Source: Escherichia coli (GTDB taxonomy: Bacteria; Pseudomonadota; Gammaproteobacteria; Enterobacterales; Enterobacteriaceae). From it: 64,000 nt of DNA. Position 1 is the first letter of the stretch. Every line of letters starts with the position of its first letter. Shown one piece after another: positions 49,632 to 52,671 of the stretch. The DNA lies in NCBI RefSeq assembly GCF_016026235.1, contig NZ_CP065613.1; one strand, 5' to 3'. A program made the translations under genes and the position numbers. The notes under the pieces were generated by a model. The model did no database searches, had not been told where the DNA came from, and saw only the letters and a program-made list of their open reading frames with translations.

Positions 49632-50294
49632 TTACATGAAGAATGGCTTATCGCCATCAGTCCCGGGTTGATTGATGCCTATATTCTCATCAATGTGTTT
49701 CTCAGGTTTATCGATGATATCTGTAATTAATGCTGCGACACTCTTACGTGATACGATCGTACCTTTGAATGGTTCATTGCGTGAGGTAAGCTCATAATCA
49801 ATAATATCTTCATCCGTCAGCCAGGCAGGGCGAAGAATTGTATATTCCAGTCCAGAAGCCTCAATTGCATCCGCAGCCCTGCGGAATGGTTTTAGGGGCT
49901 CACCAATAACTGCATTATTCCATTCGCCAAATTTTCCAGGAACTTCATCATAAATGCCGAGGGAAAGAACAAAGATCAGACGTTTAACATCACAGGCTTT
50001 CATCGCAGCGATCACTGAATTTGCCTGAATATCTAAATCTTCCCCCGTAAGGTTGGCATACACAATATCCTGTCCCTGCATGGCCTGCTTCAGTGCTGCA
50101 TGATTCAGTACATCCCCCATAATAATCTGGCTATTAGTTGGATAGGGTTTGTGTATTTTTGCTGGCTGACGAGCAAATAAAGTTTGTTTAATGGTTTGTT
50201 TATCTGCCAGTTGATTAATCACATGGCGGGCTATCTGACCGCCAGCACCAAGAATGAGTACATTTTTCATAATATTTCTCATGAAACTTATCAC
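49632..50294 (-). CDS. NmrA-like NAD(P)-binding oxidoreductase, full length
   Basis: 220 aa; Rossmann motif VLILGAGGQIARHV; start overlaps the stop of the upstream hydrolase fragment. Confidence 0.75.
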   Translation of the reverse strand: MISFMRNIMKNVLILGAGGQIARHVINQLADKQTIKQTLFARQPAKIHKPYPTNSQIIMGDVLNHAALKQAMQGQDIVYANLTGEDLDIQANSVIAAMKACDVKRLIFVLSLGIYDEVPGKFGEWNNAVIGEPLKPFRRAADAIEASGLEYTILRPAWLTDEDIIDYELTSRNEPFKGTIVSRKSVAALITDIIDKPEKHIDENIGINQPGTDGDKPFFM

Positions 50295-50872
50295 AGATGG
50301 GTGTTGAAAAAAGGAATAACTTTTTCCAGCTCCTCCTGAACAGCTTCCGGTTTGTCATACAGTTCATAATGTGAGAAATCGGGTAATGAAACTAACTGAC
50401 GATCCTGCGAAACCATCGCCCGGCCATAGACTTCCAGTCCATCACGATAAGCACCGAAGGCACCGACTTTTTCACCAACTACTACCATCACCGGCTGAGT
50501 CAGTAACACTTCAGTAAATGCGAAGGCATCCCAGGCCAGCGTTTTCTGTGCATGTGAGAACAACATTTTTGTCGCACCTCCCGGTTGTTGCCCGCGTGGT
50601 GTTTTATAGTAGTCAGTTGCTTCATAAACATCGCGTTCGGTCAGTCCATGGGCTTTTGCTGCATCCAGGCTGGCGGGAAGTAATTCGTTGATCTGTAATT
50701 CTCCACCACGAGCCTCTTTGGTTCGTTGCGACGCCATTGCATTCAATGCGCCAATCGGATCGTAATTGCTGAAACCTTCCCGAAAAAGACGCCCGATATT
50801 AACACCCGTAATACTCACTACAGCTTTAATTCGTTTTTCTGTCAGCGCGGCATTAATGGCATAGCCACCCGT
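50291..50872 (-). pseudogene. C-terminal fragment of an alpha/beta-hydrolase (ycjY paralog) interrupted by the IS110-family insertion
   Basis: ORF 50291..50818 plus upstream in-frame codons (GGYAINAALTEKRIKAVVS...) align with residues ~120-306 of the intact paralog at 52671..53603. Confidence 0.8.
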
Positions 50873-50884
50873 TACTTTATTCGT

Positions 50885-51097
50885 ACCCCTTATAATGGGG
50901 TGTTAGCCAGCCAGACCCGGCATGATTACTGCCCCCAGTCGTCCATGATCCGGGGGGTGATGTCACCGGGTCTGGTGGGGCGCTGGTAACCGCTAATAGG
51001 GGTCAGGTCAGGCACTTTTGCCGGGACCGTCTGTAACGTGGATGCCGGTACCTGCTCCCCGTGGTTATCTGGTTAACCCATATACAAGGGAGACAGA
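50885..51097 (+). ncRNA. Candidate bridge-RNA region (structured 5' non-coding leader of the IS110-family element)
   Basis: ~215 bp non-coding, GC-rich; perfect 10 bp long-range stem CCAGACCCGG (50911-50920) / CCGGGTCTGG (50966-50975), inner CCCCC/GGGGG pairing, TATAAT at 50891-50896. Confidence 0.3.
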
Positions 51098-52294
51098 ATG
51101 ACCGAATCCAGCGATTACGAATCCGTCCAGGTCTTTATCGGCGTTGATGTCGGTAAAGATACGCATCACGCTGTTGCCATTAATCGTTCAGGTAAACGCC
51201 TGTTCGATAAAGCATTACCCAACGACGAAAACAAACTCAGGTCGCTAATATCTGACCTGAAACAACATGGTCAGATACTGCTGGTTGTTGATCAGCCAGC
51301 TACCATCGGTGCGTTACCTGTCGCCGTTGCCCGCTCAGAAGGAGTCCTTGTCGGATACCTCCCTGGACTGGCCATGCGCCGCATAGCCGACTTACACGCC
51401 GGTGAAGCTAAAACTGATGCTCGTGACGCTGCCATCATTGCCGAAGCTGCCCGTACCCTGCCTCACGCGCTACGCACGCTGAAACTGGCTGACGAGCAAA
51501 TCGCCGAACTCTCCATGCTCTGCGGCTTCGATGATGATCTTGCCGCACAGACAACGCAGGCCAGCAACCGTATCCGCGGCCTTCTGACCCAGATACATCC
51601 GGCACTGGAGCGCGTTCTCGGTCCGAGACTTGAGCACCCGGCGGTACTCGATCTTCTCCAGCGATATCCCTCACCAGAAAAACTCGCTTCGCTGGGTGAG
51701 AAGAAGCTGGCAGCCCAGCTCTGCAAACTTGCGCCTCGTCTGGGTAAACGCCTTGCAGCAGACATAGCTCAGGCACTGGCCGAACAAACCGTCGTCGTTC
51801 CCGGCACGAATGCCGCTGCCGTAGTACTGCCACGTCTGGCACTCCAGCTCATCACGCTGCGTAAGCAAAGAGACGAGGTGGCGCTTGAGGTAGAACAGCG
51901 AGTTCTTGCTCACCCTCTTTACCCGGTCCTGACCAGTATGCCCGGAGTCGGTGTCAGGACCGCAGCCAGACTCCTCACCGAGGTCGCCTGCCGCGCCTTC
52001 GCCTCTGCCGCACATCTCGCTGCTTATGCTGGCCTTGCGCCGGTAACTCGGCGATCCGGCTCGTCAATACGCGGTGAGCATCCCTCGCGACGGGGTAATA
52101 AAGCTCTCAAACGGGCGTTGTTCCTGTCGGCCTTCGCCGCGCTCAGGGATCCGCTCTCCAGGGCTTACTACACCCGCAAAATGAGTCAGGGAAAACGACA
52201 CAATCAGGCGCTTATCGCCCTGGCGAGACGACGCTGCGACGTTCTGTTCGCCATGATGCGCGACGGGACTTTTTATACCCCGCAGGGGTCATAA
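51098..52294 (+). CDS. IS110-family transposase/recombinase (DEDD RuvC-like plus C-terminal Tnp domain)
   Basis: 398 aa; N-terminal VFIGVDVGKDTHHAV (first catalytic Asp); SD AAGGGAG before the ATG. Confidence 0.88.
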   Translation: MTESSDYESVQVFIGVDVGKDTHHAVAINRSGKRLFDKALPNDENKLRSLISDLKQHGQILLVVDQPATIGALPVAVARSEGVLVGYLPGLAMRRIADLHAGEAKTDARDAAIIAEAARTLPHALRTLKLADEQIAELSMLCGFDDDLAAQTTQASNRIRGLLTQIHPALERVLGPRLEHPAVLDLLQRYPSPEKLASLGEKKLAAQLCKLAPRLGKRLAADIAQALAEQTVVVPGTNAAAVVLPRLALQLITLRKQRDEVALEVEQRVLAHPLYPVLTSMPGVGVRTAARLLTEVACRAFASAAHLAAYAGLAPVTRRSGSSIRGEHPSRRGNKALKRALFLSAFAALRDPLSRAYYTRKMSQGKRHNQALIALARRRCDVLFAMMRDGTFYTPQGS

Positions 52295-52320
52295 CATGCT
52301 TGACAACTTAATAGGGGCAC

Positions 52321-52671
52321 CCCCCCACACACACCCAGCACGCCAATGCGTTCAGCATCAACATATGGCAGAGTTACTGCATAATCGATAACACGGCTAA
52401 TATCCTCTACGCGCTGTGTCGGATCTTCTATCCAACGAGGCTCCCCACCAGATTCTCCCTGGAAACTGGCGTCATAAGCGAGAACGACATAGCCTTTTTC
52501 AGCCAATGCCTTGCCATAGATATTGCCAGACGTCTGCTCCTTACAACTGCCAAAAGGATGGACGCTGATAATCGCCGGATACTGTTTTGACTCATCAAAA
52601 TTTGGTGGAAACTGAATATTGGCAGCAATATGCCAGGCCATATCACTATTGCGGATTTGAATATGTTTCAT
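52321..52671 (-). pseudogene. N-terminal fragment of the interrupted alpha/beta-hydrolase
   Basis: ORF 52273..52671: residues 1-116 align with the intact paralog (YPAIISVHPFG...ERIGVLGVCGG); the last 16 codons are read from the IS end. Confidence 0.8.

What the first reader, a model, noticed from the sequence alone, without database searches (positions are those of the whole stretch)
50291..52671. IS110-family insertion splits one of two tandem hydrolase paralogs inside a G-rich codon run
Two tandem alpha/beta-hydrolase genes are present. The downstream copy is cut between the codons ...GVCGG (ending ~52321) and GGYAINAAL... (starting ~50872), which align to the region IGAMGICAGAGYTANAA of the intact paralog. 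The plus-strand flanks are ...GCCACCCG on the left and GCACCCCCCCACACACACC on the right. The precise core dinucleotide and boundaries cannot be fixed from one copy.
Basis: seen in the sequence. Interest (0 to 1): 0.35.

Follow-up and report, generated by a model that had tools for sequence, protein, structure and literature searches.

The report
ISEc20 insertion in a hydrolase gene
A known E. coli mobile element (ISEc20, IS110 family) has landed in a run of Gs inside one of two neighbouring hydrolase genes; this is an ordinary insertion, and the run is the sequence this element's guide RNA seeks.

Summary
Window 50871-52319 is a complete 1449-bp ISEc20, about 99.5-99.9% identical to copies in about 1,100 complete E. 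coli genomes. It sits in the downstream of two tandem alpha/beta-hydrolase paralogs (42% identical).

Uninterrupted alleles join the two gene fragments exactly, so this is a simple insertion with no deletion. The insertion lies in the codons GGG GGG GGT GGC of the nucleophile-elbow motif GVCGGGGY.

About 18 independent ISEc20 sites in E. coli, and about 40 sites of relatives in Burkholderiales and Actinobacteria, all lie in C runs.

The 227-bp left end encodes a two-module RNA:
- 96.8% of stem cells are paired and 16 of 33 pairs show compensatory changes.
- One internal loop carries ACUGCCCCC and CCGGGGGG, which match the flanks.
- The other loop carries UAAUAGGGG..CA and GUAACGUGG, which match the element's own ends and covary with them.
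- A retargeted relative (L122) changed both target guides together with both flanks.

Not settled:
- Whether one or two Cs come in with the element (four of six sites give +1, two give +2).
- Whether the gene was still in frame when hit.

The same insertion is annotated in nine complete genomes (O145:H28, O55:H7, FDAARGOS_946). Interest is low to moderate.

The parts
50291..50867 (-). 3' fragment of the downstream alpha/beta-hydrolase paralog. It encodes ...GGYAINAALTEKR... to the stop codon at 50291-50293.
   Evidence: It is colinear with the intact 310-aa alleles WP_000680603/602/607.
50868..50870 (+). Left-flank C3, the part of the target C run left on this side of the element.
   Evidence: All nine genomes with this insertion also have C3 here.
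50871..52319 (+). ISEc20, the element-specific sequence (GTTACTTTATTCG...CTTAATAGGGGCA), 1449 bp. One or two additional Cs of the flanking runs belong to the inserted unit.
   Evidence: matches 1-1449 at about 99.5-99.9% identity in 1119 genomes; identical ends at about 18 different sites.
50885..50901 (+). 5' stem-loop of the putative bridge RNA (ACCCC-UUAUAAU-GGGGU), starting about where the junction promoter would start transcription.
   Evidence: fold. The closing pair changes from A-U to G-C in ISBma3. The transcription start is inferred.
50906..50980 (+). Target-binding module: a basal stem (50910-50920 with 50965-75) enclosing the two target guides and a small hairpin (50938-50949).
   Evidence: helix 1 has 15 pairs, 8 with compensatory changes, and 98.3% of cells paired.
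50928..50936 (+). Left target guide ACUGCCCCC. It has the same sense as the left flank ending at the junction.
   Evidence: Left flanks end in C3-8 (mode C5), preceded by G in about half of sites. The rtcB site L005 has ACTGCCCCC exactly. In L122 the guide ACGCUC matches the flank ACGCTC.
50950..50959 (+). Right target guide CCGGGGGG followed by UG. The reverse complement, CACCCCCCGG, equals the right junction of the product (the element's terminal CA, then C6, then GG).
   Evidence: Right flanks are C6-7, often followed by G. L007 reads GGGGCA|CCCCCCGGG. In L122, UGAGAG-UG matches CA|CTCTCA.
50981..51050 (+). Donor-binding module: a basal stem, the two donor guides and a distal hairpin (51006-51029).
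   Evidence: helices 3-5 have 8 pairs with compensatory changes.
50994..51005 (+). Left donor guide UAAUAGGGG(U)CA, the same sense as the right end TAATAGGGGCA.
   Evidence: Guide and right end covary in relatives: GGGG/GGGG, GAGG/GAGG (L108, L110-114, L121), GGGA/GGGA (L048, L049, L062, L094), GGAG/GGAG (L123).
51033..51041 (+). Right donor guide GUAACGUGG. It is complementary to the left end GTTAC preceded by CAC (contiguous), or by CC with one bulged U.
   Evidence: It is invariant in 72 of 72 aligned relatives. The left end GTTAC is also invariant.
51098..52294 (+). Transposase/recombinase gene, 398 aa, intact.
   Evidence: The exact protein is on record in 1994 blocks of the public collection.
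52300..52305 (+). TTGACA, a -35 box in the right end, 14 nt from the end. With the ends joined through one C it lies 17 nt upstream of TACTTT in the left end.
   Evidence: GCTTGAC is conserved at this distance from the right end in most relatives whose right end could be located. Promoter function is inferred by analogy with IS621 (PMC11208160).
52320..52326 (+). Right-flank C7. It is C6 in all nine complete genomes with the same insertion.
52327..52671 (-). 5' fragment of the downstream hydrolase paralog (MKHIQIRN...GVLGVCGG). Its ATG overlaps the stop codon of ycjY by one base (TAATG).
52671..53603 (-). Intact upstream paralog (ycjY), with the nucleophile-elbow motif GICAGAG.

Best explanation
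A copy of ISEc20, an IS110-family element, integrated into the homopolymeric C run (G run on the coding strand) of the second of two tandem alpha/beta-hydrolase genes. It split the gene at the Gly codons next to the presumed catalytic Cys.

The site was not random. The element's 227-bp left end encodes a bridge RNA of the IS621 type.
- One internal loop carries a C5 stretch (ACUGCCCCC) and a G6 stretch (CCGGGGGG). Together they read a run of about 9-11 Cs on the two DNA strands.
- The other loop carries sequences that read the element's own joined ends (..ATAGGGGCA / GTTAC..).
- The product is flanked by Cs on both sides, here C3 and C7 (C6 in the nine complete genomes).

The hydrolase gene became a target only in the O157:H7 / O55:H7 / O145:H28 haplotype. 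There a synonymous GGT to GGG change turned GGG GGT GGT GGC into an uninterrupted G8 run.

Shown here:
- the identity and limits of the element;
- the contiguity of the gene fragments;
- the C-run specificity;
- the RNA stems;
- the guide-flank and guide-end matches and their covariation.

Inferred:
- transcription from a junction promoter;
- the circular intermediate;
- the chemistry and exact crossover position.
For: Element identity and the insertion:
- Searches identify the element.
- Flanks of 580 and 352 bases are colinear with the empty allele. Intact 310-aa alleles exist elsewhere.

Target allele:
- Intact alleles read GCCA-CCACCCCC-ACAC.
- The haplotype of the window has a pure run: C8 in 79 genomes and C9 in 221.

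Target specificity:
- Every one of about 18 distinct E. coli sites and about 40 sites of relatives has Cs on both sides.

RNA structure:
- 33 stem pairs are 96.8% paired, against 22-56% when the partners are slid.
- 16 pairs carry compensatory changes, in 170 cells against 47 +/- 10 in shuffles.

Guides:
- The C5 and G6 stretches sit on the two sides of the first internal loop.
- In L122 both guides changed (ACGCUC, UGAGAG) and both flanks changed with them (ACGCTC | CTCTCA), 12 of 12 positions.
- In L123 the left guide UUCAUCCU matches the flank TTCATCCC.
- Three variant forms of the left donor guide (GAGG, GGGA, GGAG) each match the right end of the same elements.

Promoter:
- A conserved TTGAC(A/G) lies 14-15 nt from the right end.

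Architecture:
- The guide order (left guide, hairpin, right guide, in two modules after a 5' stem-loop) is that described for IS621 (PMC11208160, PMC11208158).
Against: - No Rfam family matches the left end. This clade's donor sequence is not in the supplementary alignments of the bridge RNA paper that I could read. The RNA is therefore a prediction.
- No expression or binding data exist here.
- A 2-nt core shared by donor and target, as in IS621, is not demonstrated. Gains of +1 C at four of six sites, the 1-nt flank overlap in L122, and the contiguous fit of GUAACGUG to CAC+GTTAC point to a single shared C. Two sites give +2.
- The left flank in the window (TAGCCACCC) matches the left guide at only 4 of 9 positions.
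- The C5 and G6 guides are predicted to pair with each other in free RNA. They would have to be opened to read DNA.
Confidence: 0.85

Rival explanations
1. The gene was already dead. The homopolymer had slipped to a frameshifted length (C9) before ISEc20 arrived, so the insertion is a secondary hit on a pseudogene and not the inactivating event.
For: In the same haplotype the empty allele is C9 (frameshifted) in 221 genomes and C8 (in frame) in only 79. Some genomes have C10. If the element brings 2 Cs, the nine genomes with C3|C6 imply a C7 target, which is also out of frame.
Against: If the element brings 1 C, as at four of six compared sites, C3|C6 implies a C8 target, which is the in-frame allele. 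Run lengths in assemblies are error-prone, so the counts are soft.
Confidence: 0.35
2. The crossover uses a 2-nt CC core shared by donor and target, exactly as the CT core of IS621. The joined ends would then read GGGGCA-CC-GTTAC and the net gain would be 1451 bp.
For: The tail-fibre site goes from C8 to C4|C6. The L021 site goes from the most common length, C8, to C7|C3. Both are +2. The window's C3|C7 would equal in-frame C8 + 2. A 2-nt stagger is what the IS621 structures show (PMC11208158).
Against: Sites giving +1:
- rtcB: an 11-nt run becomes C5|C7.
- yecD: C5TC5 becomes C5|CTC5.
- Baseplate: a 7-nt run becomes C5|C3.
- Hydrolase: the nine complete genomes carry C3|C6. That is +1 if the target was C8 and +2 if it was C7, so this site does not discriminate on its own.

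Other points:
- The flanks of L122 (..CTC | CTC..) cannot share a 2-nt core; only 1 or 3 nt fit.
- In L069 the right end is followed by a single C and then GTTACTAC.
- GUAACGUG pairs without a bulge only with a single-C junction.
Confidence: 0.35
3. The insertion was accompanied by a deletion or rearrangement of host DNA, so the two fragments are not simply the halves of one gene.
For: None was found. Elsewhere, two ISEc20 copies (L004 and L006) share a right flank but have different left flanks, so rearrangements between copies do occur.
Against: The empty allele aligns base for base to 50291-50870 and 52320-52671, apart from two point differences near the left end. Only the C-run length is in doubt. 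A reconstruction with C8 gives an uninterrupted 309-aa ORF, nearly identical to the intact alleles found elsewhere.
Confidence: 0.02
4. C-run targeting is due to direct protein recognition, or to an unusual DNA structure of G:C homopolymers, and not to RNA guides. On this view the C5 and G6 stretches in the left end simply form a helix.
For: The C5 and G6 stretches are predicted to pair with each other. They are almost invariant, so within the C-run clade there is no covariation with the target.
Against: In L122 and L123 these same positions changed and the flanks changed to match. The analogous positions of the second loop covary with the element's right end. The layout matches the experimentally defined IS621 bridge RNA.
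Confidence: 0.05

Closest known systems
ISEc20 (ISfinder name; IS110 family, IS110 group), as annotated by RefSeq in E. coli
   Same: It matches over 1449 bp at about 99.5-99.9% identity, and the 398-aa transposase is identical or nearly so. This very insertion is annotated in nine complete genomes as two hydrolase pseudogene fragments around an ISEc20 transposase.
   Different: Nothing of substance. The window has one more C in the right flank and one SNP near the right junction.
IS621 and its bridge RNA (Durrant et al. 2024, PMC11208160; Hiraizumi et al. 2024, PMC11208158)
   Same: - The recombinase has a DEDD domain plus a Tnp (PF02371) domain.
- The left end is long and non-coding, and a -35 box lies in the right end.
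[quoted passage not shown]
- In each module the 5' side of the loop has the sense of the left DNA half-site and the 3' side is antisense to the right half-site.
- The small hairpin of the first module is 12 nt in both elements.
   Different: - The transposase is 398 aa; the IS621 branch is generally 315-330 aa (PMC11187229).
- The target is a C:G homopolymer rather than a mixed 14-mer, so the two target guides are complementary to each other.
- The left donor guide appears to stop before the C(s) at the junction.
- The shared core may be one C, or AC in the donor against CC in the target, rather than an identical dinucleotide.
- Rfam gives no match.
ISBma3 (Burkholderia mallei / pseudomallei) and ISSfl4
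   Same: The transposase is about 80% identical. The ends are the same (GTTACT.. / ..ATAGGGGCA), the C5 and G6 guides are the same, and the flanks are C runs. Durrant et al. group ISEc20 with ISSfl4, and place ISBma3 in the same cluster.
   Different: The host range differs. There are compensatory changes in the stems, and the -10-like hexamer is TACTAT rather than TACTTT.
ISEc21 and the seekRNA (Siddiquee et al. 2024, PMC11187229)
   Same: It is an IS110-type element with an upstream non-coding region whose RNA carries short matches to both strands of the target. It integrates without a target duplication.
   Different: It belongs to a different subgroup (345-385 aa transposases) and targets a conserved stretch inside IS3-family transposase genes, not a homopolymer.

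Membership tests
IS110 family insertion sequence | DEDD (RuvC-like) N-terminal domain plus the IS116/IS110/IS902 C-terminal domain in one transposase | tested here: met
   PF01548 at 166 bits covers residues 14-168 and PF02371 at 78 bits covers residues 277-358. NF033542 scores 239 bits against a cutoff of 140.
IS110 family insertion sequence | No terminal inverted repeats; one long non-coding end upstream of the gene (IS110 group) | tested here: met
   The ends GTTACTTTATTCG and CTTAATAGGGGCA are not reverse complements of each other. There are 227 bp upstream and 25 bp downstream of the ORF.
IS110 family insertion sequence | Sequence-specific target choice | tested here: met
   All of about 18 E. 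coli sites and about 40 sites of relatives lie in C runs.
IS110 family insertion sequence | Circular intermediate whose joined ends form a promoter | not testable with these tools
   Only the parts are seen: a conserved TTGAC(A/G) 14-15 nt from the right end and TACTTT/TACTAT at positions 3-8 of the left end. Spacing would be 17 nt with one C at the junction.
ISEc20 (named element) | Near-identity over the full length to copies named ISEc20 | tested here: met
   It matches 1-1449 at about 99.5-99.9% in 1119 genomes annotated 'IS110-like element ISEc20 family transposase'. ISfinder's own record could not be consulted.
Bridge RNA (IS621 type) | Conserved secondary structure: a 5' stem-loop plus two stems that each enclose an internal loop and a hairpin | tested here: met
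   On 72 relatives RNAalifold gives 18 pairs with compensatory changes. For the named structure, 96.8% of cells are paired, 16 of 33 pairs are compensatory, and 0 of 500 shuffles reach the observed values. Slid controls give 22-56% paired.
Bridge RNA (IS621 type) | First loop complementary to the target: left guide in the sense of the left flank, right guide antisense to the right flank | tested here: met
   ACUGCCCCC and CCGGGGGG correspond to C-run flanks. The retargeted L122 matches at 6 + 6 positions, and L123 at 7 of 8 on the left.
Bridge RNA (IS621 type) | Second loop complementary to the joined ends of the element, with covariation | tested here: met
   The left donor guide and the right end covary in three variant classes. 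The right donor guide GUAACGUGG and the left end GTTAC are both invariant, so that pair gives no covariation test.
Bridge RNA (IS621 type) | An identical 2-nt core in donor and target, read by all four guides | tested here: inconclusive
   The gain is +1 C at four of six sites and +2 at two. L122 is incompatible with a 2-nt shared core. The left donor guide does not cover the junction C(s).
Bridge RNA (IS621 type) | The RNA is expressed and bound by the recombinase | not testable with these tools
   No transcript data are available here. Rfam 15 has no matching family.
Alpha/beta hydrolase (YcjY-like, dienelactone-hydrolase-like) | Alpha/beta-hydrolase fold signature and a nucleophile elbow G-x-Nu-x-G | tested here: met
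   The intact paralog hits PF02129, PF12146, PF01738 and PF00561. The 5' fragment of the split copy hits PF02129 and PF01738 above their Pfam cut-offs, and PF12146 only below its cut-off. The motifs G-I-C-A-G and G-V-C-G-G are read from the sequence. Catalysis and the Cys nucleophile were not tested.

The most novel reading that the evidence does not exclude
The ISEc20 / ISBma3 clade is a bridge-RNA system specialised on G:C homopolymers, and in one natural variant on a CT repeat. It may depart from IS621 in two ways.

(i) Donor and target may share only one base at the crossover, with AC in the donor against CC in the target. Integration and excision would then pass through a mismatched core.

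(ii) The two target guides are complementary to each other. The free RNA would then keep its target loop closed, a possible built-in brake.

Because its targets are slippage-prone tracts, the element would preferentially hit hypermutable, contingency-type sites. It would also find targets in any genome, which could explain its spread at 70-82% protein identity across Proteobacteria and Actinobacteria.
Probability: 0.25. Interest if true: 0.5.

Novelty: new member of a known kind. Interest (0 to 1): 0.3.

Why it matters
For the genome, it matters little. One accessory hydrolase paralog next to the murein-peptide recycling genes is knocked out in a sublineage of O145:H28 and O55:H7. That gene is already frameshifted in most O157:H7 genomes.

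For mobile-element biology, the case is a clean natural illustration of RNA-guided target choice.
- A synonymous GGT to GGG change created the homopolymer that both slips (C8, C9, C10) and attracts ISEc20.
- The guide assignments for a widespread, not yet characterised bridge-RNA clade can be read directly from public genomes.
- That includes two natural retargeting events.

If the single-base or mismatched core is real, it would bear on the design rules for bridge recombinases.

Tried and rejected
- **Rfam.** A scan of 50700-52500 at E <= 1 gave no match.
- **Literature.** Searches for ISEc20, ISBma3 and ISSfl4 found only listings and nothing on targets. This clade's donor sequence is absent from the held supplements of PMC11208160.
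- **'CA core' model.** Here the terminal CA of the right end would be shared with the target. It was attractive because the empty rtcB allele reads ACTG-CCCC-A-CCCCCC-G, which fits the left guide plus the reverse complement of CCGGGGGGUG. I rejected it because no left junction among about 60 sites reads ..CAC-GTTAC.
- **'The A of GGGGCA comes from the target'.** Rejected because the pure C8 empty sites (tail fibre, L021) still give GGGGCA after insertion.
- **A-interrupted empty alleles as excision footprints.** Rejected because the A lies one base away from where a footprint of the observed insertions would fall. The A is more simply the T of a GGT glycine codon, since the genes are on the opposite strand at all three sites.
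- **Right flank of L123 against its right guide.** Only 3-5 of 8 positions match, so I did not use it as evidence.
- **Preference for G before and after the run.** It is only about twofold over background, so specificity lies essentially in the Cs.
- **Fixing the number of Cs gained.** Six empty-site comparisons gave a split result: +1 four times and +2 twice.
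Full report
**1. What is in the window**

The region is the E. coli tpx - ycjG - mpaA - SDR gene - hydrolase - ycjY - pgrR - mppA neighbourhood.
- On the minus strand there are two tandem alpha/beta-hydrolase genes. The stop codon of one overlaps the start codon of the other by one base (TAATG at 52671).
- The upstream gene (ycjY, 52671-53603) is intact.
- The downstream gene is split into a 5' part (52671 down to about 52327...GVLGVCGG) and a 3' part (about 50867 down to 50291, GGYAINAAL...).
- The reconstructed downstream protein is 42% identical to YcjY over 299 residues (E = 3e-78).
- The break falls in G-V-C-G-G-G-G-Y, which aligns with G-I-C-A-G-A-G-Y of YcjY. This is the nucleophile elbow of the fold. 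A Cys nucleophile is read from the sequence only and was not tested.
- Between the fragments lies a plus-strand ORF of 398 aa (51098-52294). It carries PF01548 and PF02371 and NCBIfam NF033542, 'IS110 family RNA-guided transposase'.

**2. Identity and limits of the insert**

- Megablast against 5,426 complete E. coli genomes shows that 50871-52319 (1449 bp, GTTACTTTATTCG...CTTAATAGGGGCA) matches end to end, at about 99.5-99.9% identity. The matching copies are annotated 'IS110-like element ISEc20 family transposase' and occur in 1119 genomes.
- At about 18 different chromosomal and plasmid sites the shared sequence starts and stops at exactly these bases.
- There is one copy in the window.

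**3. Simple insertion, not a deletion**

- The closest uninterrupted allele (strain 148, locus L001) matches the first 580 bases (50291-50870) and the last 352 bases (52320-52671) of the finding, apart from two point differences near the left end. Only the number of Cs in the middle is in question.
- Intact 310-aa versions of the gene exist in other lineages: WP_000680603, WP_000680602 and WP_000680607.

**4. The target allele**

- In intact alleles the plus strand reads GCCA-CCACCCCC-ACAC, so the coding strand reads GGG GGT GGT GGC.
- In the haplotype of the window the A is a C (a synonymous GGT to GGG change), which gives an uninterrupted run.
- Exact-match searches find C8 (in frame) in 79 genomes and C9 (frameshifted, as RefSeq annotates it) in 221. 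C10 also occurs. All are in O157:H7 and O145 strains.
- The run is therefore both slippage-prone and, as shown next, the kind of sequence ISEc20 inserts into.

**5. Target specificity**

- Every ISEc20 copy examined has Cs on both sides. The left flank has C3 to C8 (mode C5). The right flank has C6-C7, sometimes interrupted by a T, and is followed by G in about half of the sites.
- The same holds for ISBma3 in Burkholderia pseudomallei (80% identical transposase).
- It also holds for about 40 further distinct sites of relatives (70-82% identity) in Burkholderiales and, unexpectedly, in Actinobacteria (Microbacteriaceae and Micrococcaceae).

**6. The RNA**

- The 227 bp upstream of the ORF fold stably (z = -2.95).
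- I aligned 72 non-identical left ends. RNAalifold returns two long stems, each enclosing an internal loop and a distal hairpin.
- I then counted a structure limited to those stems, excluding any guide-guide pairs:
  - 96.8% of 2373 cells are paired, against 22-56% when the partners are slid by 1-3 columns.
  - 16 of 33 pairs have changes on both sides.
  - 170 cells are compensatory, against 47 +/- 10 in shuffles, and 0 of 500 shuffles reach the observed value.
- The order of parts is that described for the IS621 bridge RNA: 5' stem-loop; stem - left guide - 12-nt hairpin - right guide - stem; then the same again.

**7. Guides**

*First loop (target).*
- The 5' side is ACUGCCCCC (50928-50936). 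The 3' side is CCGGGGGG followed by UG (50950-50959).
- The first has the sense of the left flank. The reverse complement of the second, CACCCCCCGG, is the right junction of the product: the element's terminal CA, then C6, then GG. For example, L007 reads GGGGCA|CCCCCCGGG.
- Within the clade these stretches are almost invariant, as is the target.
- Two natural exceptions supply the test.
  - In L122 (Arthrobacter sp. S39) the contig is the element plus the few flank bases that all copies share. The guides are ACGCUC and UGAGAG-UG, and the flanks are ACGCTC | CTCTCA. All 12 positions match, in the same register.
  - In L123 the left guide UUCAUCCU faces the flank TTCATCCC. Its right side fits only partly.

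*Second loop (donor).*
- UAAUAGGGG(U)CA (50994-51005) repeats the right end TAATAGGGGCA.
- GUAACGUGG (51033-51041) is complementary to the left end GTTAC plus the junction.
- The left donor guide covaries with the right end in three variant classes: GAGG/GAGG, GGGA/GGGA and GGAG/GGAG.
- GUAACGUGG and GTTAC are both invariant.

*Promoter.*
- A conserved TTGAC(A/G) lies 14-15 nt from the right end. With the ends joined it would sit 17-18 nt upstream of TACTTT (TACTAT in ISBma3). Transcription would then start near the 5' stem-loop.
- Promoter use, the circle and the RNA itself are inferred.

**8. Where exactly is the crossover?**

Because everything happens inside a homopolymer, the register is ambiguous. 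I compared six filled sites with empty alleles.

| Site | Empty allele | Filled allele | Gain |
|---|---|---|---|
| rtcB | 11-nt run | C5 \| C7 | +1 |
| yecD | C5-T-C5 | C5 \| C-T-C5 | +1 |
| Baseplate | 7-nt run | C5 \| C3 | +1 |
| This hydrolase (nine complete genomes) | C8 | C3 \| C6 | +1 (+2 if the target was C7) |
| Tail fibre | C8 | C4 \| C6 | +2 |
| L021 site | C8 (most common) | C7 \| C3 | +2 |

- Three further observations favour a single C between the ends.
  - The flanks of L122 can overlap by 1 or 3 nt but not by 2.
  - L069 has its right end followed by one C and then GTTACTAC.
  - GUAACGUG pairs without a bulge with CAC+GTTAC.
- I therefore give the inserted unit as 1449 bp plus one (less likely two) C.
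- I leave open whether the exchanged 'core' is CC, or AC in the donor against CC in the target.
- In the window the left flank matches the left guide poorly (4 of 9), while the right flank supplies the full C run. It is a sub-optimal site, consistent with its rarity.

**9. Distribution of this insertion**

- Both junctions are found in nine complete genomes: six O145(:H28), two O55:H7 (DEC5A, DEC5E) and FDAARGOS_946. All have C3|C6.
- The window has C3|C7 and one extra SNP, so it is a tenth, closely related sequence.
- Other O145 strains and O157:H7 carry the empty C8 or C9 allele.
- I could not decide between one old insertion with later loss and repeated hits at the same register.

**10. Was the gene alive when hit?**

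- With a gain of +1, C3|C6 means a C8 target, which is in frame. With +2 it means C7, which is out of frame.
- Since C9 is the commonest empty state today, a prior frameshift cannot be excluded.

**11. Assessment**

- The element is a named, annotated IS, and its family's mechanism is known. The finding is therefore ordinary.
- The follow-up adds three things:
  - the exact limits;
  - the demonstration that the G-rich codon run is the specific target;
  - a guide map for the ISEc20 / ISBma3 clade with natural retargeting and donor covariation.
- The follow-up leaves open the homopolymer-related oddities: mutually complementary target guides and a possible one-base or mismatched core.

Noticed in passing
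window 54944-57881, element about 55205-56496: mppA is also interrupted, by an IS4-family element. It has 19-nt inverted ends (55204-55222 and 56478-56496) and a direct repeat GAGATTGTCCCC on both sides (55193-55204 and 56496-56507). Its transposase is split into two overlapping ORFs (55197-55919 and 55727-56476). The 3' part of mppA resumes at 56634.
   Followed up: partly
L013 (NZ_CP091704.1 870742-870802) and many other E. coli genomes: A solo 61-bp left end of ISEc20 sits in a prophage Rz region. It is cut off exactly after ...GATTACTG, at the start of the C5 guide, by the end of an IS3-family element. The C5 stretch of the element itself may therefore be an insertion or deletion hot spot.
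   Followed up: partly
L047-L126 (genome-contig scan): Transposases 70-82% identical to ISEc20 occur in Burkholderiales and in Actinobacteria (Pseudoclavibacter, Microbacterium, Cryobacterium, Arthrobacter and others). They have the same ends, the same C5 and G6 guides and the same C-run flanks. This is an unusually wide host range for such similar elements.
   Followed up: partly
L122 (Arthrobacter sp. S39, NZ_SIHX01000036.1) and L123 (Acidimicrobiaceae MAG): These are natural retargeted variants. In L122 the guides ACGCUC and UGAGAG match the flanks ACGCTC | CTCTCA, a CT repeat. In L123 the left guide UUCAUCCU matches the flank TTCATCCC. In L122 the two guides are again predicted to pair with each other.
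   Followed up: yes
L052, L124; L047, L066, L076, L109 (right ends): Some copies read ...GGGAC-C-C or ...GAGGC-C-C instead of ...CAC at the right junction. In four others the right end is eroded into the C run (ATAGGGCCC, ATAGCCCCCC). L124 also has its G guide expanded to a 13-G run followed by AGGG. This could reflect resolution of a mismatched core, slippage or assembly error.
   Followed up: no
window 50868-50870 / 52320-52326 and the empty alleles in O157:H7 and O145: The hydrolase homopolymer varies in length among otherwise identical alleles: C8 in 79 genomes, C9 in 221, and some C10. The gene is therefore frameshifted in most O157:H7 genomes. I could not tell real slippage from sequencing error.
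   Followed up: partly
L004 and L006: Two ISEc20 copies share the same right flank (tRNA-Arg side) but have different left flanks, a phage terminase gene in one and a terB pseudogene in the other. This suggests recombination between copies.
   Followed up: no
L134 (rtcB), L127-129 (hydrolase), L130 (baseplate): Three of six empty alleles carry a single A inside the C run (CCCC-A-CCCCCC, CC-A-CCCCC, CC-A-CCCC), and the filled alleles never do. The A is the T of a GGT glycine codon on the coding strand. Whether such interrupted runs are refractory to ISEc20 is untested.
   Followed up: partly
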